This document shows, piece after piece, positions 1 through 7,082 of a DNA stretch of 7,082 nucleotides. The stretch lies in IMG/VR virus record IMGVR_UViG_2695420821_000006; one strand, written 5' to 3'. This DNA comes from a virus. Its lineage: Duplodnaviria; Heunggongvirae; Uroviricota; Caudoviricetes. The notes under the pieces are model-generated. The model worked only from the letters and a program-made list of their open reading frames with translations. It was not told where the DNA came from and searched no databases. The position numbers and the translations under genes were made by a program. The number at the start of each line of letters is the position of its first letter. Position 1 is the first letter of the stretch.

Positions 1-26
1 GTAAGCGTGCAGCAAGAACCGTATTG
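1..26. repeat. IS66 terminal inverted repeat (tnpC-proximal end)
   Basis: Starts GTAAGCGTGCAGCAAGAACCGT; pairs imperfectly with the reverse complement of 2429-2454 (shared GTAAGCGT, then CAGCA and CCGT blocks). Exact IR length is uncertain. Confidence 0.55.
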
Positions 27-37
27 ACGGGGATGTG

Positions 38-1576
38 TTATTCAGTCGGCAGTGCTACGCGCCAGGGGAGCAGTTCGCCGACCCGGTTTATCGGCCAGTC
101 GGCTATGACGTCAAGGACATAGCGGAGGTAGCTTTCTGGCTCCACTCCGTTCAGTTTGCACGTCCCGATCAGGCTGTACAGCAGCGCTCCCCGCTCTCCT
201 CCATGATCCGAACCGAAGAACAGGTAGTTTTTGCGGCCCAGACTGACCATCCGCAACGCATTTTCAGCGATGTTATTGTCCGCCTCAGCCCAGCCATCAT
301 CTGCATAGTACGTCAGCGCCGGCCACTGGTTCAGGGCGTATGCGAACGCTTTCGCCAGTTCTGAGTGTCGCGACAGGGTTTTCATCTTTTCACGCAGCCA
401 GCTTTCCAGGGATTTCAGCAGCGGTTTCGTTTTCAACTGACGTTCGGCAAGGCGCTGCTCCGCCGTCATTCCCCTTATCTCTGCCTCGATGGCGTACAGT
501 TCGCCGATCCGTTTCAGCGCTTCCTCCGTCAGGGCTGACGGGGTGCGAACGTGCACATCGTGGATTTTACGGCGGGCGTGAGCCCAACAGGCGGCTTCCG
601 TTATCCGGCCATCCCGGTACAGCTCGTTGAACCCGGCGTATGCATCCGCCTGCAGTACACCACTGAACCCCGCAAGATGGGTCTGCGGATGGATGCCTTT
701 TCTGTCCGGGCTGTAAGCGAACCACACCGCCGGCGCCAGCGTTGACCCGGCGTTACGGTCGTCACGAACGTAGGTCCATAACCGCCCGGTCTTCGTTTTC
801 TTATTGCCTGGCAACAGCACCGGGACAGGCGTGTCATCAGCATGGAGCTTACCGTCAGTCAGCACATAGTCCTGAAGCGCTTCTTCCAGCGGTGACAGTA
901 GCCGGCAGCATGCATCCACCCAGCCCGACAGCAGTGAACGACTCAGCTCCACGCCCTGGCGGCCGTACATTTCAGACTGGCGGTACAGCGGGGTGTGCTC
1001 TGCATACTTTGAGATCAGCACGCGGGCCAGCAGCCCCGGTCCTGCGATACCCCGCTCGATGGGCCGTGAAGGCGCGGGGGCCTGCACGATGGCATCGCAC
1101 TGAGTACAGGCATGCTTTTCACGTACAGTCCGGATAACCCGGAAGGCGCTGCGCATCAGCTCCAGCTGTTCGGCGGCATCCTCACCCAGATAGCTCAGCG
1201 AGCCTCCACATTCCGGGCAGCATGACGCTGCCGGCAGCAGCCGTTTTTCATCGCGGGGGAGTGATTCGGGGAACGGTTTGCGGGTGCGGGTTTGACGCAG
1301 CGGGCGCTGCACGGCCGGGTCGTCAACCCGACCGGTAAGGGTATCACTTTCTTTCTGAAGTGCCTTCAGGTCAGCTTCCATCTGTGCGATACGACGGGAG
1401 ACTTTTTCCGAGCGGCTGCCGAAGTTCATCCGGCGCAGCTTATCCAGCTGTGCCTGCAGATGGTCTATTTCGCGTTCACGCTCGTTCAGCTTTTCCTGCA
1501 GGGCACGGTTCAGCGCCTCCTGTTCGGCAAGGAGACGTTTCAGTGCATTGATATCGTCAGGAAGTGAGCTGCTCAT
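38..1576 (-). CDS. tnpC: IS66-family transposase (TnpC / Orf3), 512 aa
   Basis: 512-aa ORF with an N-terminal coiled-coil-like region ([19 protein letters not shown]...), a CxxC...CxxC zinc-finger-like pair (CCPECGG...CTQCD) and a long catalytic core; matches my recollection of IS66 TnpC architecture. It is the last of three co-oriented IS ORFs. Confidence 0.88.
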
Positions 1577-1624
1577 ACCGGGTATATTACCAGGCTCATT
1601 CAGCGTCGACCAGGATAAAGAGGC

Positions 1625-1972
1625 TTACAACATAGTCAGGGACGTAAGCAGTCTTTTAGGCTGCCGCCAGTCGATACCTTCCAGCAGCATCGCCAGCTGT
1701 GCCGGTGTGAGGAACACTTTGCCATCCCGGGCTGACGGCCAGGCGAAGCGGCCGCGCTCCAGCCGTTTGGTCAGCAGACACAGTCCATCGCCGGTAGACC
1801 AGAGGAGCTTTACCTGACTGCCATTACGCCCACGGAAGATAAAAACGTGACCTGACATCGGATCGTCTTTCAGCGTCGTCTGCACCTTTGCCGCCAGGCC
1901 GTTGAAGCCGTTTCTCATATCGGTGATGCCAGCGACCAGCCAGATCTTTGTCCCTGATGGTAATGGGATCAA
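1625..1972 (-). CDS. tnpB: IS66 Orf2 (TnpB-type accessory protein), 115 aa
   Basis: Translation MIPLPSGTKIWLVAGITDMRNGFNGLAAKVQ... has the characteristic IS66 Orf2 N-terminus; its start overlaps the tnpA stop by 4 bp. Confidence 0.85.
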   Translation of the reverse strand: MIPLPSGTKIWLVAGITDMRNGFNGLAAKVQTTLKDDPMSGHVFIFRGRNGSQVKLLWSTGDGLCLLTKRLERGRFAWPSARDGKVFLTPAQLAMLLEGIDWRQPKRLLTSLTML

Positions 1973-2373
1973 CGTTTGAGCTCCCGTATCAGCAGGTTCA
2001 GGATATTTTCGCTGATGGCACCATTCAGACGGAGTGATCCGTGCCGGAACGTCACTTCACAGCTGATATTGAGTGATTCAGGTGTCGCAGCAGCTACAGG
2101 TTGTGACCGGGGGGAGGTTGTAGGGACAACATCTTCGGCATCAAGTGTTATCGGGAGCAGCTCAGGCACGTTGTTTTCTGTTGTTGAAGGAGGACGTAGT
2201 TTTCCTTCGCGCCAGTACTGGCGCCACTTGAACAGCAAATTATCGTTGATCCCATGCTCACGAGCGAGTTGCGCTACGGAGATCTCTGGTCGATGCGAGA
2301 GTTCAACCATTTTGATTTTGAACTCAACGGGATAATTAGGGCTTTTTTTACGCACTGCGGTTAATGATTTCAT
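1969..2373 (-). CDS. tnpA: IS66 Orf1 (TnpA, helix-turn-helix transposase accessory protein), 134 aa
   Basis: N-terminal HTH-like region (EFKIKMVELSHRPEISVAQLAREHGINDNLLFKWRQ) typical of IS3/IS66 orfA proteins; first ORF inside the tnpA-proximal IR. Confidence 0.82.
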   Translation of the reverse strand: MKSLTAVRKKSPNYPVEFKIKMVELSHRPEISVAQLAREHGINDNLLFKWRQYWREGKLRPPSTTENNVPELLPITLDAEDVVPTTSPRSQPVAAATPESLNISCEVTFRHGSLRLNGAISENILNLLIRELKR

Positions 2374-2428
2374 GGATAGCGTCCACCATATTTGGTGTCC
2401 ACTATTCTCTCAGGAATTTCAGGATCTG

Positions 2429-2454
2429 CCAGACGGTGCTGAGACGACGCTTAC
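2429..2454. repeat. IS66 terminal inverted repeat (tnpA-proximal end)
   Basis: Reverse complement of 2429-2454 reads GTAAGCGTCGTCTCAGCACCGTCTGG, matching the pos 1-26 terminus in the first 8 nt and in later blocks. Confidence 0.55.
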
Positions 2455-2470
2455 AAATGGCGGTAGTGAA

Positions 2471-2653
2471 ATGCGAAAATTCAAAATAATTATTGAAACG
2501 GGAATAGCTGGTGGAGATTTTGAGGATGTATTCGAAGTAGATGATGACGCAACACCTGATGAAATTCATGACGAAGCAAAAGAAATTTTCTTTAACTACT
2601 GCAATTACTCATACCACGAAATAAAAGACGAAGAGGAAGGACAAAATGGCTGA
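2471..2653 (+). CDS. Small strongly acidic hypothetical protein (60 aa); first gene of the coupled operon
   Basis: ATG at 2471 is the first in-frame start outside the IS; the longer ORF-track call (2372..2653) begins inside the IS and is taken as read-through artefact. About 18 of 60 residues are D/E against 5 K/R. The stop overlaps the next start (ATGGCTGA). The RBS is weak (GGTAG). Confidence 0.5.
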   Translation: MRKFKIIIETGIAGGDFEDVFEVDDDATPDEIHDEAKEIFFNYCNYSYHEIKDEEEGQNG

Positions 2654-2822
2654 TTTTGGTTCAACTAAATATAACGCCAGTTTTGAAGAATGGCATGAAC
2701 TGTTAATGGATTATGCAGAGTTACGCGGTGGAAGTGCCGCTGATGCTGAAGCATGGCGTGATGATTATGAAGCAGGGAAAACTCCGGTCGAAGCATATTG
2801 TGATGAGTGGGGCGATGAATGA
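2646..2822 (+). CDS. Small strongly acidic hypothetical protein (58 aa)
   Basis: ORF MADFGSTKYNASFEEWHELLMDYAELRGGSAADAEAWRDDYEAGKTPVEAYCDEWGDE, below the ORF-track size cutoff. About 16 of 58 residues are D/E against 4 K/R. Its start overlaps the upstream stop and its stop overlaps the next start (ATGA at 2819-2822). Confidence 0.5.
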   Translation: MADFGSTKYNASFEEWHELLMDYAELRGGSAADAEAWRDDYEAGKTPVEAYCDEWGDE

Positions 2823-3178
2823 GCGAGATTAATTATCAGGAAGGGCATGAAAAGGCAGGGCAGGCAAAACCAGTGGCATGGCGATATCGCTACGTGAAAA
2901 AAGGCGTTACAGACTTTCAGGGGAAGCAGTGGGCTGGTGACTGGAAATATGTCCAGACAAAAGAAGATTGTAACGACAGACCGAACTATGAAATTCAGGC
3001 GTTATTCACGGCCCCGCCAGCCCCGGTGACATCAGAAGGACTAGTTAAAGCCGTGCGCTTTTATGAACAGGTAAAGCGTGAGAATCCACCCGTCGAAACA
3101 GGTGCATGGAAAGATGCTGTTGACTGGGTACTCAAAGAGGCTTGTCAGGTTGTAAACATTCGCATCAAAGGAGAATGA
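2819..3178 (+). CDS. Hypothetical protein, 119 aa (not recognised)
   Basis: Uninterrupted ORF with ATGA overlap to the upstream gene; the next gene starts 2 nt after its stop. W/Y-rich, no family recognised. Confidence 0.6.
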   Translation: MSEINYQEGHEKAGQAKPVAWRYRYVKKGVTDFQGKQWAGDWKYVQTKEDCNDRPNYEIQALFTAPPAPVTSEGLVKAVRFYEQVKRENPPVETGAWKDAVDWVLKEACQVVNIRIKGE

Positions 3179-3179
3179 G

Positions 3180-3695
3180 ATGGCGTTAACACACCGCGAA
3201 CTCTGTCAGATTGCCTACAGGTTCCTTAAGCGCAACGGGTTCAAGGTTTGCTTTCATGACCGCTTTGTTGCTGTAACCAGTACTGGAGAACAACCAGATG
3301 CTATGGGATTCAGAAATTCAGCATCATGCCTGATAGAGGCGAAGTGTTCTCGTGCTGACTTGTTGGCAGATAGAAAAAAGCGTTTCCGTAAAAATCCCTC
3401 TCTTGGCATGGGGGACTGGCGATTCTTTATTAGTGAGCCGGGAATTATTTCAATTGAGGATTTACCACCTGGCTGGGGATTACTTCACGTTGTTAACGGA
3501 AGAGTACGGAAAGTATATGGGTGGCCCAAGGGTAATTGCTGTTGGGGTAATCCTGACGATAAGCCATTTACCGGAAATAAGCAGGTTGAATGCGATTACA
3601 TGTTATCTGCATTAAGGCGCATGGAGTTGAGAGGGCACCTTAATGAAATATATGACGGTGTAATTGTTAATAAGAAAGAAGGAAACGCGGCATGA
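3180..3695 (+). CDS. Putative PD-(D/E)xK-fold nuclease-like protein (possibly MmcB-like), 171 aa
   Basis: Contains QPDAMGF followed about 12 residues later by LIEAKCSRADLLAD, i.e. a D ... E-x-K arrangement resembling the restriction-endonuclease-like catalytic motif. Family assignment is motif-based only. Confidence 0.6.
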   Translation: MALTHRELCQIAYRFLKRNGFKVCFHDRFVAVTSTGEQPDAMGFRNSASCLIEAKCSRADLLADRKKRFRKNPSLGMGDWRFFISEPGIISIEDLPPGWGLLHVVNGRVRKVYGWPKGNCCWGNPDDKPFTGNKQVECDYMLSALRRMELRGHLNEIYDGVIVNKKEGNAA

Positions 3696-4261
3696 TCACT
3701 ATTACCAAAGAGCGACTACTGACAATCAAGCAGTGGCGCGAAACATACGGACCTGGTAGCAACGTTGTGCTTCCAGCAGAAGAAGCGGAAGAGCTGGCAC
3801 GGATTGCACTGGCATCACTGGCAGCAGTATCGGATGAACGAGCAGCCTATGAATTATTTATGGAGAAGCGTTTCGGAGAATCTGTAGATCGCCGCAGAGC
3901 AAAAAATGGCGATAGAGAATACATGGCATGGGATATGGCGCTTGGCTGGATTATCTGGTGTCACCGCGCCGCCATGCTTCAGGCTGGAAACTTTCGGGAA
4001 CATAAGGGTTCGTCAACCAATAATTTTCGGGAAATCTCGGAAACGTCAACCAACCATCCGGTAACTCCGGATGGTTGGATAAGCTGTAGTGAGCGAATGC
4101 CGGATGACGGGCAGTGGTGCGTAGTGAACACAGAATACGGGTATTACGTGCAATGCTGGTCTGAAGGTCAAGGATGGCTTGGTGATGATATCAGCATCCC
4201 TGAATGCGATGTAATCAATCGGATGCTTCTACCTGAACCGCCGCAGAAGGTGCGCCAATGA
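3692..4261 (+). CDS. Phage-type protein with C-terminal DUF551-like domain, 189 aa
   Basis: C-terminus PDGWISCSERMPDDGQWCVVN...YYVQCW fits the W-I-S-x-x-(D/E)-R-(L/M)-P signature I associate with DUF551, which is common in lambdoid nin/early-region proteins. ATGA overlap with the upstream gene. The linker between domains contains a DNA-level repeat. Confidence 0.7.
   Translation: MITITKERLLTIKQWRETYGPGSNVVLPAEEAEELARIALASLAAVSDERAAYELFMEKRFGESVDRRRAKNGDREYMAWDMALGWIIWCHRAAMLQAGNFREHKGSSTNNFREISETSTNHPVTPDGWISCSERMPDDGQWCVVNTEYGYYVQCWSEGQGWLGDDISIPECDVINRMLLPEPPQKVRQ
3989..4053. repeat. Two imperfect ~32-bp direct repeats inside the DUF551 gene linker
   Basis: 3989-4020 AACTTTCGGGAACATAAGGGTTCGTCAACCAA and 4022-4053 AATTTTCGGGAAATCTCGGAAACGTCAACCAA; about 23 of 32 positions identical, with conserved TTCGGGAA and CGTCAACCAA ends. 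Encodes NFREHKGSSTN / NFREISETSTN. Confidence 0.7.
4050..4078. repeat. Perfect 12-bp inverted repeat with 5-bp spacer inside the DUF551 gene
   Basis: CCAACCATCCGG-TAACT-CCGGATGGTTGG; the arms are exact reverse complements. Located directly 3' of the direct repeats. Confidence 0.8.
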
Positions 4262-4341
4262 ACTGGCCTGAAGCATTTGCAATTACAGGCGTTGCTATGG
4301 CTATCGCTTTTTTAGTATATGTTATTTGTCGGTGGGGGTAA
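4258..4341 (+). CDS. Putative small hydrophobic peptide (27 aa)
   Basis: MNWPEAFAITGVAMAIAFLVYVICRWG; its start overlaps the stop of the DUF551 gene (ATGA), suggesting translational coupling. One predicted transmembrane helix. Too short for confident calling. Confidence 0.4.
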   Translation: MNWPEAFAITGVAMAIAFLVYVICRWG

Positions 4342-4376
4342 AAACGTTCGCCGGGATTAACACCAAAGGAGGGAAT

Positions 4377-4475
4377 ATGTCGGATGATATTTCACTGGCA
4401 ATGGAAGGCGCGCTGGCCGTTATTTCTGTTGTGGGCGTTTACTGCCTGGTTGTGTTTTTGATGGATCGGATGTGA
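4377..4475 (+). CDS. Putative small hydrophobic peptide (32 aa)
   Basis: MSDDISLAMEGALAVISVVGVYCLVVFLMDRM; preceded by a strong RBS AAGGAGGG (4366-4373) 4 nt before the ATG. One predicted transmembrane helix. Confidence 0.45.
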   Translation: MSDDISLAMEGALAVISVVGVYCLVVFLMDRM

Positions 4476-4522
4476 AACTGAATTCATTGCGATATGGGCA
4501 TTCCCATATCGGGTAAAACGGT

Positions 4523-4550
4523 TTGCGGTAAAGCGAGAGTTAAGTAGAAT
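4523..4550 (+). promoter_or_regulatory. Putative sigma70 promoter of the hok/mok mRNA
   Basis: TTGCGG (4523-4528), 16-nt spacer, TAGAAT (4545-4550); predicted start near 4557-4560, where the sequence (GGGTGCTTGAGGCTGTCTGCCTC...) resembles the 5' end of plasmid R1 hok mRNA as I recall it. Confidence 0.45.
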
Positions 4551-4556
4551 TGCTGC

Positions 4557-4568
4557 GGGTGCTTGAGG
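4557..4568 (+). promoter_or_regulatory. hok mRNA 5' element (tac-like) complementary to the 3' fbi-like element
   Basis: GGGTGCTTGAGG is complementary, with one bulge, to CCTCAACGCACCC at 4931-4943. It is followed by a 9-bp stem CTGTCTGCC / GGCAGACAG (4570-4578 with 4596-4604). Confidence 0.45.
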
Positions 4569-4609
4569 CTGTCTGCCTCGGGCATGCCGACGTAAGGCAG
4601 ACAGAGAAA

Positions 4610-4676
4610 AGCCCCAGTTAACATTATGCGTCTTGCAGGACGCTTAACATTAATCTGAGGCCATATCTATGACTTG
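4610..4676 (-). ncRNA. sok: Predicted Sok-like antisense RNA (approximate boundaries)
   Basis: A minus-strand promoter (features 4684-4712) would start transcription near 4676, giving an antisense RNA across the mok SD and start codon as in hok/sok systems. The 3' end is not defined; only a weak hairpin (GCGTC…GACGC) and a short T-run are visible. Confidence 0.4.
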
Positions 4677-4881
4677 CACACTTAGATTAGCCTCTTACGC
4701 GCCGAAAGGCAAGGAGCAGCAGGCTATGAAGCAGCAAAAGGCGATGCTAATCGCCCTGATCGTCATCTGTATTACCGTCGTTGTAACGGTACTGGTAACG
4801 AGGAAAGACCTCTGCGAGGTACGAATCCGAACCGGCCAGACGGAGGTCGCTGTCTTCACAGCTTACGAATCTGAGAAGTAA
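4669..4881 (+). CDS. mok: mok-type reading frame (70 codons) that includes the hok frame and shares its stop
   Basis: ATG at 4669 with SD GAGG (4657-4660); in frame with hok. The arrangement is as I recall for chromosomal mokC/hokC. This is the target region for the antisense RNA. Confidence 0.5.
   Translation: MTCTLRLASYAPKGKEQQAMKQQKAMLIALIVICITVVVTVLVTRKDLCEVRIRTGQTEVAVFTAYESEK
4684..4712 (-). promoter_or_regulatory. Putative sok promoter
   Basis: On the minus strand: TTGCCT (complement of 4707-4712), 17-nt spacer, TAATCT (complement of 4684-4689); it lies inside the start of the mok frame, as expected for sok. Confidence 0.4.
4726..4881 (+). CDS. hok: Hok/Gef-family type I toxin (small membrane killer protein), 51 aa
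   Basis: MKQQKAMLIALIVICITVVVTVLVTRKDLCEVRIRTGQTEVAVFTAYESEK aligns by eye with Hok (…[27 protein letters not shown]): one transmembrane helix followed by the conserved TRK-LCE-R…EVA-F-AYES-K tail. RBS AAGGAG at 4711-4716. Confidence 0.88.
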   Translation: MKQQKAMLIALIVICITVVVTVLVTRKDLCEVRIRTGQTEVAVFTAYESEK

Positions 4882-4930
4882 GAGACCCGGCGAGGGAGAA
4901 ATCCCTCGCCACCTCTGATGTGTCAGGCAT

Positions 4931-4943
4931 CCTCAACGCACCC
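4931..4943 (+). promoter_or_regulatory. fbi-like 3' element of hok mRNA
   Basis: CCTCAACGCACCC is complementary to the mRNA 5' end (4557-4568). It lies between a perfect 9-bp hairpin (GGCGAGGGA-GAAA-TCCCTCGCC, 4889-4910) and the terminator. Confidence 0.45.
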
Positions 4944-4951
4944 GCACTTAA

Positions 4952-4976
4952 CCCGCTTCTGCGGGTTTTGTTTTTT
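4952..4976 (+). terminator. Rho-independent terminator of the hok mRNA
   Basis: CCCGC-TTCT-GCGGG stem-loop (4952-4965) followed by TTTTGTTTTTT (4966-4976). Confidence 0.7.
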
Positions 4977-4997
4977 CTTGACATTCTGGTTTACAAT
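4968..4997 (+). promoter_or_regulatory. Possible weak promoter for the downstream ORF
   Basis: TTGTTT (4968-4973), 18-nt spacer, TACAAT (4992-4997). A perfect TTGACA at 4978-4983 is too close to that -10 element to be its -35. Speculative. Confidence 0.25.
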
Positions 4998-5047
4998 TCG
5001 CACGCCAGCCTGAACAACTGGCACCTGCTGTGTCACCGGAGAACCCG

Positions 5048-5239
5048 ATGGCGCAACGTATAAAATCCCACAATTCTGAAGCCGTCCCGGCCATTAAGCG
5101 GGGGCGGCATTCGCACGTATTTAAAACCGACTGGTACCAGCATCCCCCATGCACTGAAGAACAGGCCGAATGGCTGATTCAGTGTTACCGCAGGCGCGGA
5201 TATTGGTGTGTCACGTTAACCGGAAAAAGGAAAGTTTGA
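5048..5239 (+). CDS. Hypothetical 63-aa ORF, possibly the 5' part of a frameshifted gene continuing into the TerB-like frame
   Basis: ATG at 5048 with RBS GGAGA (5038-5042); the ORF track starts it at an upstream GTG (5030). It ends at TGA 5237-5239, directly after an A5 run (5224-5228) where a +1 shift would enter the TerB-like frame. Confidence 0.3.
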   Translation: MAQRIKSHNSEAVPAIKRGRHSHVFKTDWYQHPPCTEEQAEWLIQCYRRRGYWCVTLTGKRKV

Positions 5240-5612
5240 GAAACGCGATCTGGCACAGGCGGTGATTAACGCCGCATACCTGGTGGCCTGTGCAGATGGT
5301 GAATGTGAGGCTTCCTAGAAAGCGAAGATCGAACAGGTACTGCGTAATCAGCCTGCGCTGTACGCGTTTACGTCAGAAATTAATGCGATTAGCGCAACCA
5401 TTATCGGTCAGCTGGATACGAACTTTAAAACTGGTCGTCGTGCGGCGTTACGTGAGATCGAGGATGTGAAACACGATACGCGTGAAGCGGAAGATGTGCT
5501 GGATGTGGCGGTGGCCATTGCGGAGGCAGACGGCGAAATTGAGCCGGAAGAGCGCAAGGTGCTGGAAGAGATTGCCGGTGTTCTGGGTCTTCGTCTGGAG
5601 AATTACCTGTGA
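5220..5612 (+). pseudogene. TerB-family (tellurite-resistance TerB-like domain) gene, apparently disrupted
   Basis: The frame reads …AQAVINAAYLVACADGECEAS*KAKIEQVL…VAIAEADGEIEPEERKVLEEIAGVLGLRLENYL*, i.e. two ADG-x5-E-x-(K/R) repeats typical of TerB-like domains. There is an in-frame TAG at 5316-5318 (probably from GAG), a TAA at 5217-5219 just upstream, and no ATG/GTG start before the domain. Confidence 0.55.
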
Positions 5613-5776
5613 CGGTAAAACTGCGCCTGACTGTGGCTGCACTCCTGCTGTTTCTGGTGGTGATGGTGGATTTCACCAGCAGAATCATGTCGGTGCTGGC
5701 GGATGGGGTGCTGGTCTGCGGCATTATGGTATTGCTGTGGCCGGTGATAAAAAGAAACAGCCTGCATAATGCTTGA
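5609..5776 (+). CDS. Putative small membrane protein (about 55 aa, GTG start) coupled to the TerB-like frame
   Basis: GTG at 5609 overlaps the TerB-frame stop (GTGA). Translation (M)TVKLRLTVAALLLFLVVMVDFTSRIMSVLADGVLVCGIMVLLWPVIKRNSLHNA is hydrophobic with two potential helices. Followed by a T-rich stretch (5777-5790). An alternative ATG start is at 5663. Confidence 0.3.
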   Translation: MTVKLRLTVAALLLFLVVMVDFTSRIMSVLADGVLVCGIMVLLWPVIKRNSLHNA

Positions 5777-6090
5777 TTTTTTTGTTTGCTGTTTATTAAA
5801 AACACTTCTGCATGGTGAATCCCCCTGTGCGGTGGGGCAATCAGCAAGAAGGAATATGGGGTAATCGCGGATTCAGGTGCTGATACTGAATTCACCGGGA
5901 GGCACCCGGCACCATGCTTTGCCACAAAAGTGTTATTTCTGTTTTTCTCAAACTATCATCGTTATCCCTTTATTTTCGGCTGCGCATGGCGCGGCCTTTT
6001 TTTTACGACCAGCCACTGGCAGATGGTCATCCTGTGATTTGATTCCGCTTCCGGCTTTTTAACTCTGTTCCTCTACACGGGAGAAATTCG

Positions 6091-7082
6091 ATGTCGATTA
6101 AACATTATGATGTTGTCAGGGCGGCGTCGCCGTCAGACCTTGCGGAAAAGCTGACACACAAACTGAAAGAGGGCTGGCAGCCATACGGCGGACCGGTTGC
6201 CATTACGCCGTACACACTGATGCAGGCGGTGGCTATTGAAGGAGAGCCACAGGTCGGCCCTTCATCTGAGCCGGATTGGTACTACGTCATCGTACTGGCC
6301 GGGCAGTCCAATGCCATGGCTTACGGTGAAGGGCTTCCGCTGCCGGATTCATACGATGCTCCGGATCCGCGCATTAAACAGCTGGCGCGCCGCAGTACAG
6401 TGACGCCGGGCGGGGCTGCCTGCAGATATAACGATATTATTCCGGCTGACCACTGTCTGCATGATGTGCAGGATATGAGTACGCTGAATCATCCGAGGGC
6501 TGACCTGAGCAAAGGGCAGTACGGCTGTGTCGGCCAGGGTTTACATATTGCCAAAAAACTGCTCCCGTATATCCCGAATAACGCGGGGATCCTGCTGGTA
6601 CCATGCTGTCGTGGTGGTTCGGCATTTACCCAGGGCGCGGAGGGGACATTCAGCGAGTCCACGGGGGCCAGTCAGGATTCGGCACGCTGGGGGGTGGGCA
6701 AGCCGTTATATCAGGATCTGATTTCCCGCACAAAAGCGGCATTGCAGAAAAATCCCAAAAACGTTCTGCTGGCCGTCTGCTGGATGCAGGGTGAGTTTGA
6801 CATGAGCGCCGCCACCCACGCACAGCAACCTGCGCTGTTTACAGCCATGCTGACACAGTTTCGTGCTGACCTCTCCGTGTTTAACGCGCAGTGCCATGGT
6901 GGCAGCGCTGCAGATGTGCCGTGGGTTTGTGGTGACACGACGTATTACTGGAAAAATACATACGCTACCCAATACGACACCGTGTACGGCGGGTATAAAA
7001 ACAGGGAGAGTGAGGGCGTTTATTTTGTGCCCTTCATGACAGACGGTAACGGCGTCAATACCGCCACTAACGCGCCGGCAGA
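6091..7082 (+). CDS. nanS: Prophage-type NanS-p-like 9-O-acetyl-sialate esterase (DUF1737-like N-terminal domain + SASA/GDSL-like esterase domain); 3' end truncated by the window
   Basis: RBS GGGAGA 8 nt before the ATG at 6091. N-terminus MSIKHYDVVRAASPSDLAEKLTHKLKEGWQPYGGPV… resembles the DUF1737 domain, followed by YYVIVLAGQSNAMAYGEG with the GQSN catalytic-serine motif of sialate O-acetylesterases. Open frame runs to the window end (330 codons, no stop). Confidence 0.78.
   Translation, partial: MSIKHYDVVRAASPSDLAEKLTHKLKEGWQPYGGPVAITPYTLMQAVAIEGEPQVGPSSEPDWYYVIVLAGQSNAMAYGEGLPLPDSYDAPDPRIKQLARRSTVTPGGAACRYNDIIPADHCLHDVQDMSTLNHPRADLSKGQYGCVGQGLHIAKKLLPYIPNNAGILLVPCCRGGSAFTQGAEGTFSESTGASQDSARWGVGKPLYQDLISRTKAALQKNPKNVLLAVCWMQGEFDMSAATHAQQPALFTAMLTQFRADLSVFNAQCHGGSAADVPWVCGDTTYYWKNTYATQYDTVYGGYKNRESEGVYFVPFMTDGNGVNTATNAPA

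What the first reader, a model, noticed from the sequence alone, without database searches (positions are those of the whole stretch)
6091..7082. NanS-p-type sialate O-acetylesterase without an adjacent stx operon or Q antiterminator
The DUF1737-like N-terminus plus SASA/GDSL-like esterase (GQSN motif) matches the prophage-borne NanS-p family. In Stx phages this gene sits immediately downstream of stxAB in the late region. Here it is preceded by a hok locus and a decayed TerB-like gene, with no stx, tRNA or Q in the preceding 6 kb, which suggests a rearranged or stx-less late region or a different genomic context for this family. The gene continues beyond the window.
Basis: partly seen in the sequence, partly recalled or inferred. 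Interest (0 to 1): 0.45.

Follow-up and report, generated by a model that had tools for sequence, protein, structure and literature searches.

The report
Known prophage sialate esterase; Q region deleted
This is the first 330 codons of a well-known prophage sialic-acid O-acetylesterase (NanS-p type), identical to the one in the classic stx-free phage 434; the missing Q antiterminator is explained by a simple 2.6-kb deletion in a decaying prophage, so the finding is ordinary.

Summary
An ORF starts at 6091 and runs open to 7082, giving 330 codons. It has DUF1737 plus SASA domains and the GQSNA motif. It is preceded by hok/sok, a TerB pseudogene and a DUF3927 gene. The window contains no tRNA, stx or Q.

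It is not new. The 330 residues are 100% identical to the SASA esterase of phage 434 and 99.7% identical to a paralogue in a stx-less O157:H7 prophage. About a quarter of 5,426 complete E. coli genomes hold a near-full-length match. The literature already records NanS-p genes in non-Stx prophages.

The missing Q has a simple cause. The window is 100.000% identical to one public prophage (L007) in two collinear blocks. Between them, 2,562 bp are missing, with a 2-bp TA microhomology at window 5201/5202. The lost segment carried the 3' end of a 90-aa ORF, DUF968, RusA, Q, the putative late promoter PR' and its putative first terminator. In undeleted relatives the order is Q, TerB pseudogene, DUF3927, esterase, holin, lysozyme, spanin.

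This prophage also carries an IS66-family insertion (1-2454). The esterase is probably poorly expressed, because a strong terminator lies 85 nt upstream and no consensus promoter was found.

Verdict: already known, low interest.

The parts
1..2454 (-). Complete IS66-family insertion sequence (ISEc22 type): transposase 38-1576, tnpB 1625-1972, tnpA 1969-2373. The terminal repeats begin GTAAGCG.
   Evidence: 99.8% identical to annotated ISEc22 in L004. The ends and the empty site in L009 are shown.
2455..2462 (.). 8-bp target-site duplication AAATGGCG of the IS. The other copy lies just left of the window start in L007.
   Evidence: comparing L007 (IS present) with L009 (empty site).
2471..4261 (+). 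Early-right ('nin'-like) prophage genes of unknown function: DUF7167, two small ORFs, a 171-aa ORF and a DUF551 protein.
   Evidence: Pfam, PHROGs, and the same genes in L006-L014.
4557..4881 (+). hok/sok type I toxin-antitoxin locus. The Hok ORF is 4726-4881, with an overlapping mok-like extension from 4669. The sok hit is at 4557-4731.
   Evidence: Pfam HOK_GEF 3.9e-23; Rfam sok 114.8 bits; PHROG MokW-like.
5048..5239 (+). Truncated ORF. The first 52 codons come from a 90-aa prophage ORF, and 11 out-of-context codons follow after the deletion junction.
   Evidence: tblastn of the L007 90-aa ORF gives 100% over residues 1-52, ending at 5203. This fusion product is not on record elsewhere.
5201..5202 (.). 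Deletion junction with TA microhomology. 2,562 bp present in L007 (11512-14073) are missing here: the 3' end of the 90-aa ORF, DUF968, RusA, Q, and the putative PR' and tR'.
   Evidence: Two collinear 100.000% blocks against L007; junction sequences; gene content of the gap.
5220..5612 (+). TerB-like pseudogene with an in-frame TAG at 5316-5318.
   Evidence: Translation; Pfam TerB 1.4e-10; GAG in the intact O157:H7 allele; annotated as a pseudogene in D1, ESDR8 and others.
5609..5776 (+). DUF3927 / TciB-like small membrane protein gene.
   Evidence: Pfam DUF3927 1.7e-16; PHROG 1470.
5781..5953 (+). STnc100/PasD-family prophage small RNA.
   Evidence: Rfam RF02076, 100.8 bits against a gathering score of 47. 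The arrangement sRNA, then esterase, then holin/lysozyme is described in bioRxiv 10.64898/2026.05.13.724894.
5978..6005 (+). Intrinsic terminator (8-bp GC-rich stem, U8 tail), 85 nt upstream of the esterase ATG.
   Evidence: Scan; fold of -15.4 kcal/mol, z=-2.6; the same site is annotated as a terminator in the phage 434 record.
6091..7082 (+). 5' part (330 of 616 codons) of a NanS-p-type sialate O-acetylesterase gene. DUF1737 is at 6100-6237 and the SASA/SGNH domain starts at 6286. The Ser73 codon is at 6307-6309. Blocks GQSNA, RGGSAF and MQGEFD are present. The catalytic His and the C-terminal lectin-like domain lie beyond the window.

Best explanation
The region encodes the N-terminal 330 residues of a standard prophage NanS-p esterase. 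The full protein has three parts: a DUF1737 domain, an SGNH/SASA sialate 9-O-acetylesterase domain and, beyond the window, a lectin-like C-terminal domain. It belongs to a stx-less lambdoid prophage. In such prophages the gene is a late gene, normally transcribed from the late promoter PR' under Q antitermination, and it lies between Q and the holin/lysozyme/spanin cassette. In the genome sampled here, a 2,562-bp illegitimate-recombination deletion with 2-bp microhomology removed DUF968, RusA, Q, the putative PR' and its putative first terminator. That brought the hok locus next to the TerB pseudogene. An IS66-family element has also inserted upstream. The prophage is therefore a decaying, late-gene-silent remnant. 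The esterase reading frame is still intact over the part visible. Its transcription is probably reduced to read-through, because a strong terminator sits just upstream and no consensus promoter is seen. The following are shown: protein identity and domains, the deletion, the IS insertion and the terminator. The following are inferred: enzymatic activity (from paralogues reported active), loss of expression, and the downstream lysis genes (seen only in relatives).
For: Domains and motifs. The blocks GQSNA, RGGSAF and MQGEFD are identical to those listed for NanS 3PT5 in PMC10792757. The protein is 100% identical over 330 aa to the phage 434 esterase and 99.7% to an O157:H7 paralogue. The full-length relative, which is identical over the window's 330 residues, carries THFS (the catalytic His block) and a C-terminal domain matching PDB 6YP6 'NanS-p' at E=1e-29. 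The window equals L007 in two 100.000% blocks with 2,562 bp missing between them, and the lost genes are identified. The lost segment also holds a stretch with TTGATT...TAAATT hexamers and a GC-stem/T-run just after Q, which I read as PR' and tR'. Undeleted relatives with the same IS insertion show Q, TerB pseudogene, DUF3927, esterase, holin, DUF1327, lysozyme, Rz (L007, L008, L011, L013), as do D1 and O157:H7. The junction is present in a public IMG/VR record identical to window 2360-7078. Terminator. No plus-strand promoter-like site in 4200-6400. On the literature side, the review PMC8065619 states that all EDL933 and O104:H4 nanS-p alleles tested gave active esterases and are encoded in prophages. 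NanS-p in non-Stx prophages is noted in PMC10462455.
Against: The window ends at codon 330, so the catalytic His, the C-terminal domain and the downstream lysis genes are not seen in this genome. The deletion junction is absent from 5,426 complete E. coli genomes. The only other record with it (L015) is probably the same source, so the junction has no independent confirmation. The promoter scan is crude, and an unconventional or sRNA-associated promoter could still drive the gene. Activity of this exact allele was not traced to a specific published experiment, because the primary papers were not held.
Confidence: 0.88

Rival explanations
1. The Q-less arrangement is an assembly artefact. On this view the window is a short draft contig wrongly joined between two lambdoid prophage modules, and the real prophage still has Q.
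For: The window starts exactly at the first base of an IS. It ends inside a multi-copy gene family, with a median of 2 and up to 15 places per genome. That pattern fits a short contig bounded by repeats. No complete genome has the junction, and no gene call for the fusion ORF is on record.
Against: Both flanks are 100.000% identical to one and the same prophage, in the same order and orientation. The overlap at the join is only 2 bp, whereas graph-based misjoins need a shared repeat of k-mer length. A 2-bp microhomology is typical of real illegitimate-recombination deletions. Comparable natural losses of the Q region exist, namely L002 (Q absent) and L005 (only the last 159 nt of Q left beside an IS3).
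Confidence: 0.08
2. The gene is a domesticated, Q-independent host metabolic gene. It would be expressed from its own promoter or from the upstream sRNA promoter, and retained for growth on O-acetylated sialic acids while the rest of the prophage decays.
For: The reading frame is intact and identical to functional-phage alleles although neighbours have decayed: TerB nonsense codon, Q deletion, IS insertion. A conserved sRNA gene lies directly upstream. The review literature proposes a fitness benefit of NanS-p for lysogens.
Against: The flanks are 100% identical to the undeleted relative, which implies a very recent deletion, so intactness says nothing about selection. A strong terminator separates the sRNA from the ATG, and no promoter-like site was found. 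The protein has no hydrophobic N-terminal signal sequence (direct reading). Without lysis it would stay in the cytoplasm, unlike NanS, which is periplasmic (stated from my own knowledge; not checked here).
Confidence: 0.1
3. It is the chromosomal nanS (yjhS) gene of the nanCMS sialic-acid operon rather than a prophage paralogue.
For: The best solved-structure match is NanS 3PT5 at E=1e-107.
Against: Identity to NanS is only about 58% over the shared domain. An extra N-terminal DUF1737 domain is present. The full-length relatives are 616 aa with a DUF6645 C-terminus. The neighbours are all prophage genes. The protein is 100% identical to a phage 434 protein.
Confidence: 0.01

Closest known systems
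Phage 434 SASA family carbohydrate esterase (UMO75335.1, OL657226.1 43456-45306)
   Same: 100% amino-acid identity over the 330 residues in the window. The full-length protein of the window's undeleted relative L007 is 100% identical over all 616 aa. The terminator lies upstream in the same place and a DUF3927/TciB gene precedes it. The phage has no stx. Holin, endolysin and spanins lie downstream.
   Different: Phage 434 has a Q82-like antiterminator about 1.5 kb upstream and a membrane-protein gene where the window has the TerB pseudogene. DNA similarity to the window starts only at window 5643. The window has lost Q.
NanS-p paralogues of E. coli O157:H7 in stx-less lambdoid prophages (e.g. 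WP_000023257.1 in strain Rafaela_II)
   Same: 99.7% identical over the 330 aa and 99.5% over 616 aa. The module order TerB, DUF3927, esterase, holin, YdfR, lysozyme is the same.
   Different: The O157:H7 copy has an intact TerB gene, with Q plus three tRNA genes upstream. The window has a TerB nonsense codon and no Q or tRNA.
NanS-p of Stx2 phages (933W L0105/z1466; phi24B vb_24B_21/gp84)
   Same: The three-domain plan is the same: DUF1737, SASA esterase, lectin-like C-terminal domain. The late-region position upstream of the lysis genes is also the same. [quoted passage not shown]
   Different: Identity is only 62-76% over the first 330 aa. Identity is 56% over the full length to the 644-aa esterase of a different late region (L009). 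In Stx phages stxAB lies immediately upstream. A capsid-decoration role for DUF1737 has been shown only for the short-tailed phi24B (bioRxiv 10.64898/2026.04.10.717836).
Chromosomal NanS (YjhS), PDB 3PT5
   Same: Same SGNH/SASA catalytic domain, with identical block I-III motifs and about 58% identity.
   Different: NanS consists of the esterase domain alone (337-residue chain in 3PT5) and lacks DUF1737 and the C-terminal lectin-like domain. From my own knowledge, not checked here, it is a periplasmic enzyme of the nan regulon.

Membership tests
NanS-p (prophage-borne sialate O-acetylesterase) | N-terminal DUF1737 domain | tested here: met
   Pfam PF08410, E=1.1e-15, aa 4-49.
NanS-p (prophage-borne sialate O-acetylesterase) | Central SASA/SGNH esterase domain homologous to NanS, with the nucleophile and oxyanion blocks | tested here: met
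   Pfam PF03629 at 1.6e-13 and 3PT5 at E=1.2e-107. GQSNA (71-75), RGGSAF (174-179) and MQGEFD (232-237) are identical to the blocks listed for 3PT5 in PMC10792757.
NanS-p (prophage-borne sialate O-acetylesterase) | Catalytic histidine block (SHFS/THFS) | tested here: inconclusive
   It lies beyond the window end, at predicted aa 358-361 (nt 7162-7173). It is present in the full-length relatives, which are 100% identical over the first 330 aa.
NanS-p (prophage-borne sialate O-acetylesterase) | C-terminal lectin-like jelly-roll domain (DUF6645; PDB 6YP6) | tested here: inconclusive
   Outside the window. Present in L007 and phage 434 full-length proteins (Pfam DUF6645 4.5e-18; 6YP6 E=1.1e-29).
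NanS-p (prophage-borne sialate O-acetylesterase) | Location in a lambdoid prophage late region, between Q/PR' and the holin-endolysin cassette | tested here: inconclusive
   The upstream late-region module (TerB pseudogene, DUF3927, sRNA, terminator) is present, but Q and the putative PR' are deleted. The downstream part is not in the window. Relatives with 100% identical flanks have Q upstream and holin/lysozyme/Rz downstream.
NanS-p (prophage-borne sialate O-acetylesterase) | Esterase activity on Neu5,9Ac2 or O-acetylated mucin sialic acids | not testable with these tools
   Only review statements are available: all tested EDL933 and O104:H4 alleles were reported active (PMC8065619).
Stx-converting phage late region | stxAB operon (with tRNA genes) between Q and nanS-p | tested here: not met
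   No tRNA. No Stx2d A/B similarity in six frames. TerB and DUF3927 occupy that slot in this prophage type.
Chromosomal NanS (YjhS) | Esterase-domain-only protein without DUF1737 or a C-terminal domain, in a chromosomal (non-prophage) setting | tested here: not met
   Extra DUF1737 domain, 616-aa relatives with DUF6645, prophage neighbours, and about 58% identity only.

The most novel reading that the evidence does not exclude
The esterase could remain expressed without Q or PR', for example by read-through from the upstream STnc100/PasD-type sRNA gene. In that case a locked, lysis-incompetent prophage remnant would serve as a domesticated locus for using O-acetylated sialic acids.
Probability: 0.1. 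Interest if true: 0.3.

Novelty: already known. Interest (0 to 1): 0.08.

Why it matters
It matters little. The gene is a textbook member of a family already characterised in EHEC prophages, and an identical copy sits in phage 434. The only strain-specific feature is a small deletion that removes the late-gene regulator. That is one more example of how lambdoid prophages decay, here by loss of Q and the putative PR' plus an IS insertion. If the esterase were shown to be expressed without Q, it would be a modest example of prophage gene domestication. The case also shows that NanS-p genes should not be used as markers of Stx phages.

Tried and rejected
NCBIfam gave no model for the esterase, so Pfam, PHROGs and PDB were used instead.

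I looked for the deletion junction elsewhere:
- No place in 5,426 complete E. coli genomes covers it.
- The 63-aa and 69-aa fusion ORFs are not on record.
- Exact 40-mer scans of genome contigs and metagenome contigs found nothing.
- Viral contigs gave one hit, L015, which is simply identical to window 2360-7078 and is probably the same source.

I tried to read three primary papers: Saile 2016 (PMC5038053), Rangarajan 2011 (PMC3149194) and Feuerbaum 2018 (PMC7106450). None is held. I therefore could not assign this allele to a numbered EDL933 NanS-p, or cite Ser19/His301 from the source. The block table in PMC10792757 was used instead. A search for a paper on the phage 434 genome that mentions the esterase found nothing relevant.

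I considered that the window might be from an Stx phage, because its early region is 94% similar to an Stx2d prophage (L006). I rejected this because no stx or tRNA is present and the late module is the TerB/DUF3927 type.

I considered whether Q supplied in trans from another prophage could rescue expression. I judged it unlikely, because the segment that should hold PR' and its Q-utilisation (qut) site is also deleted.

No structure prediction or large protein searches were run. Identity to known proteins made them unnecessary.

Full report
**Observation**

An ATG at 6091, preceded by GGGAGA at 6079-6084, opens a frame that stays open to the last base of the window, giving 330 codons.

- Pfam finds DUF1737 at aa 4-49 (E=1.1e-15) and SASA at aa 66-262 (E=1.6e-13).
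- PHROG 143 matches at E=3e-219.
- The best solved structure is E. coli NanS/YjhS (3PT5) at E=1.2e-107, with about 58% identity.
- The SGNH blocks GQSNA (71-75, Ser73), RGGSAF (174-179) and MQGEFD (232-237) are identical to those tabulated for 3PT5 in PMC10792757.
- The N-terminus has no hydrophobic signal-like stretch (direct reading).

The upstream features are also as described.

- The hok/sok locus matches Pfam HOK_GEF at 3.9e-23 and Rfam sok at 114.8 bits.
- The TerB-like frame has an in-frame TAG at 5316-5318, where the intact O157:H7 allele has GAG.
- A DUF3927/TciB-like gene lies at 5609-5776.
- ARAGORN finds no tRNA.
- Six-frame searches with five Q types, DUF1133, Stx2d A/B, DUF968 and RusA find nothing.

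**What the gene is**

The 330 residues are 100% identical to the SASA esterase of the classic stx-free lambdoid phage 434 (OL657226). They are 99.7% identical to a paralogue in a stx-less prophage of E. coli O157:H7, and 62-76% identical to the NanS-p of Stx phages.

The full-length protein of the closest relatives has 616 aa. It is 100% identical to the window over the shared part and 100% identical to the 434 protein over all 616 aa. It adds the catalytic-His block THFS at 358-361. It also adds a C-terminal DUF6645 domain that matches PDB 6YP6, deposited as 'NanS-p', at E=1e-29. The gene is therefore a standard three-domain NanS-p.

In 5,426 complete E. coli genomes, 1,828 have a DNA match to this 992-bp stretch. 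Of these, 1,392 cover at least 80% of it, with a median of 2 and up to 15 places per genome.

The literature already covers this ground:

- nanS-p occurs in non-Stx prophages (PMC10462455).
- All EDL933 and O104:H4 alleles tested were prophage-encoded and active (PMC8065619).
- Fewer than 3% of chromosomal copies of the PasA sRNA gene, which flanks the esterase-holin-lysozyme cassette, lie adjacent to Shiga toxin genes (bioRxiv 10.64898/2026.05.13.724894).
- A 2026 preprint reports that in phi24B the DUF1737 domain anchors the protein to the capsid as a decoration protein. Whether that holds for this prophage type is unknown.

**Why Q is missing**

Looking up the window's DUF551 protein gave contigs that carry the same prophage. 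Against one of them, L007 (GCA_048120945.1), the window is 100.000% identical in two collinear blocks: window 1-5202 equals L007 6310-11511, and window 5201-7082 equals L007 14074-15955.

The 2,562 bp in between are absent from the window. The two blocks overlap by the dinucleotide TA. The lost segment carries:

- the 3' part of a 90-aa ORF;
- DUF968;
- RusA;
- a 273-aa Q antiterminator (Pfam Antiterm 1.3e-50);
- 188 bp downstream of Q, holding a TTGATT...TAAATT stretch and a GC-stem/T-run that I read as PR' and its first terminator.

What remains is a 63-codon fusion ORF at 5048-5239.

In undeleted relatives the order is hok, 90-aa ORF, DUF968, RusA, Q, TerB pseudogene, DUF3927, esterase, holin, DUF1327/YdfR, lysozyme, Rz. 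This is seen in L007, L008, L011 and L013, in strain D1 and in O157:H7, where three tRNA genes follow Q and TerB is intact. This is the ordinary late-region position, with TerB and DUF3927 occupying the slot that stxAB holds in Stx phages. Other natural losses of the Q region in this module exist: L002 lacks Q, and L005 keeps only its last 159 nt beside an IS3.

**Is the junction real?**

No complete E. coli genome in the collection has it. The fusion ORF is not on record. Exact scans of genome and metagenome contigs were empty. One IMG/VR record (UViG_2693429762_000001, 4,719 bp) is identical to window 2360-7078 and contains the junction, but it is probably the same source.

The window begins at the first base of an IS and ends inside a multi-copy gene, as a short draft contig would. 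A misassembly therefore cannot be fully excluded. Even so, collinear flanks from one prophage joined at a 2-bp microhomology fit a true deletion much better.

**Other anatomy**

- Window 1-2454 is a complete ISEc22-type IS66-family element with the target duplication AAATGGCG. It lies between a 118-aa early gene and the DUF7167 gene, and L007, L008 and L011 share this insertion.
- Between DUF3927 and the esterase lies an STnc100/PasD-family sRNA hit at 5781-5953 (100.8 bits).
- A strong intrinsic terminator follows at 5978-6005 (-15.4 kcal/mol, z=-2.6). It is annotated as a terminator at the same place in the phage 434 record.
- No sigma-70-like site was found on the plus strand in 4200-6400.

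**How it most likely works**

The product is a sialate 9-O-acetylesterase with Ser73 as nucleophile and, by inference, His359 as base. In an intact prophage it is made late, under Q antitermination. Its released form is thought to act on O-acetylated sialic acids, for example in mucin. This rests on review literature and on homology to tested paralogues, not on any test here.

Q and the stretch that should contain PR' with its Q-utilisation site are gone. The late operon should therefore be silent, and Q supplied from another prophage could not rescue it. The IS insertion would additionally hinder read-through from the early promoter. The esterase frame is intact over the visible part. Because the flanks are 100% identical to undeleted relatives, the deletion is recent, so this intactness says nothing about selection.

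**Verdict**

The situation is ordinary and already known: the protein is known, its stx-less context is the common one, and the lack of Q is a trivial deletion in a decaying prophage.

Noticed in passing
window 1-2462: A complete ISEc22-type IS66-family element with an 8-bp target duplication (AAATGGCG). The window's first base is the first base of the IS, which suggests the window starts at a contig end. Several public genomes (L007, L008, L011) share the same insertion site, while L009, L010, L012, L013 and L014 lack the IS there.
   Followed up: yes
window 5781-5953: Strong Rfam hit to the prophage sRNA STnc100 (100.8 bits, gathering score 47), directly upstream of the esterase. A 2026 preprint relates STnc100 to the PasD sRNAs and describes the arrangement pasD, esterase, holin, lysozyme as common. 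Its promoter and targets were not examined here.
   Followed up: partly
window 4890-4971: Weak isrK-like hit (29.3 bits, below the gathering score of 50) just after hok, ending in a terminator-like hairpin at 4950-4967. In Salmonella Gifsy-1, as I recall, IsrK controls an anti-Q protein. Whether this is a true homologue is open.
   Followed up: no
window 5316-5318: The TerB-like gene is inactivated by a GAG-to-TAG change relative to the intact O157:H7 allele. The same pseudogene is annotated in many E. coli genomes, so the decay is older than the Q deletion.
   Followed up: yes
window 5048-5239: The deletion creates a 63-codon chimeric ORF (52 native codons plus 11 new ones). It is not found among the gene products on record in the assembly collection that was searched.
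   Followed up: yes
L009 15500-17660 (also L010, L012): The same early-region backbone (99.9% identical to window 2455-5202) is joined to a different late region. That region has an N6 methyltransferase, two tRNA-like genes, and about 1.8 kb without any ORF of 80 aa or more and without similarity to stx2d. A 644-aa esterase follows that is only 56% identical. This looks like lambdoid module exchange, but the ORF-poor stretch was not explained.
   Followed up: partly
window 3180-3695 and 2819-3178: Two conserved prophage ORFs (171 aa and 119 aa) with strong PHROG matches but no Pfam or NCBIfam family and no known function.
   Followed up: no
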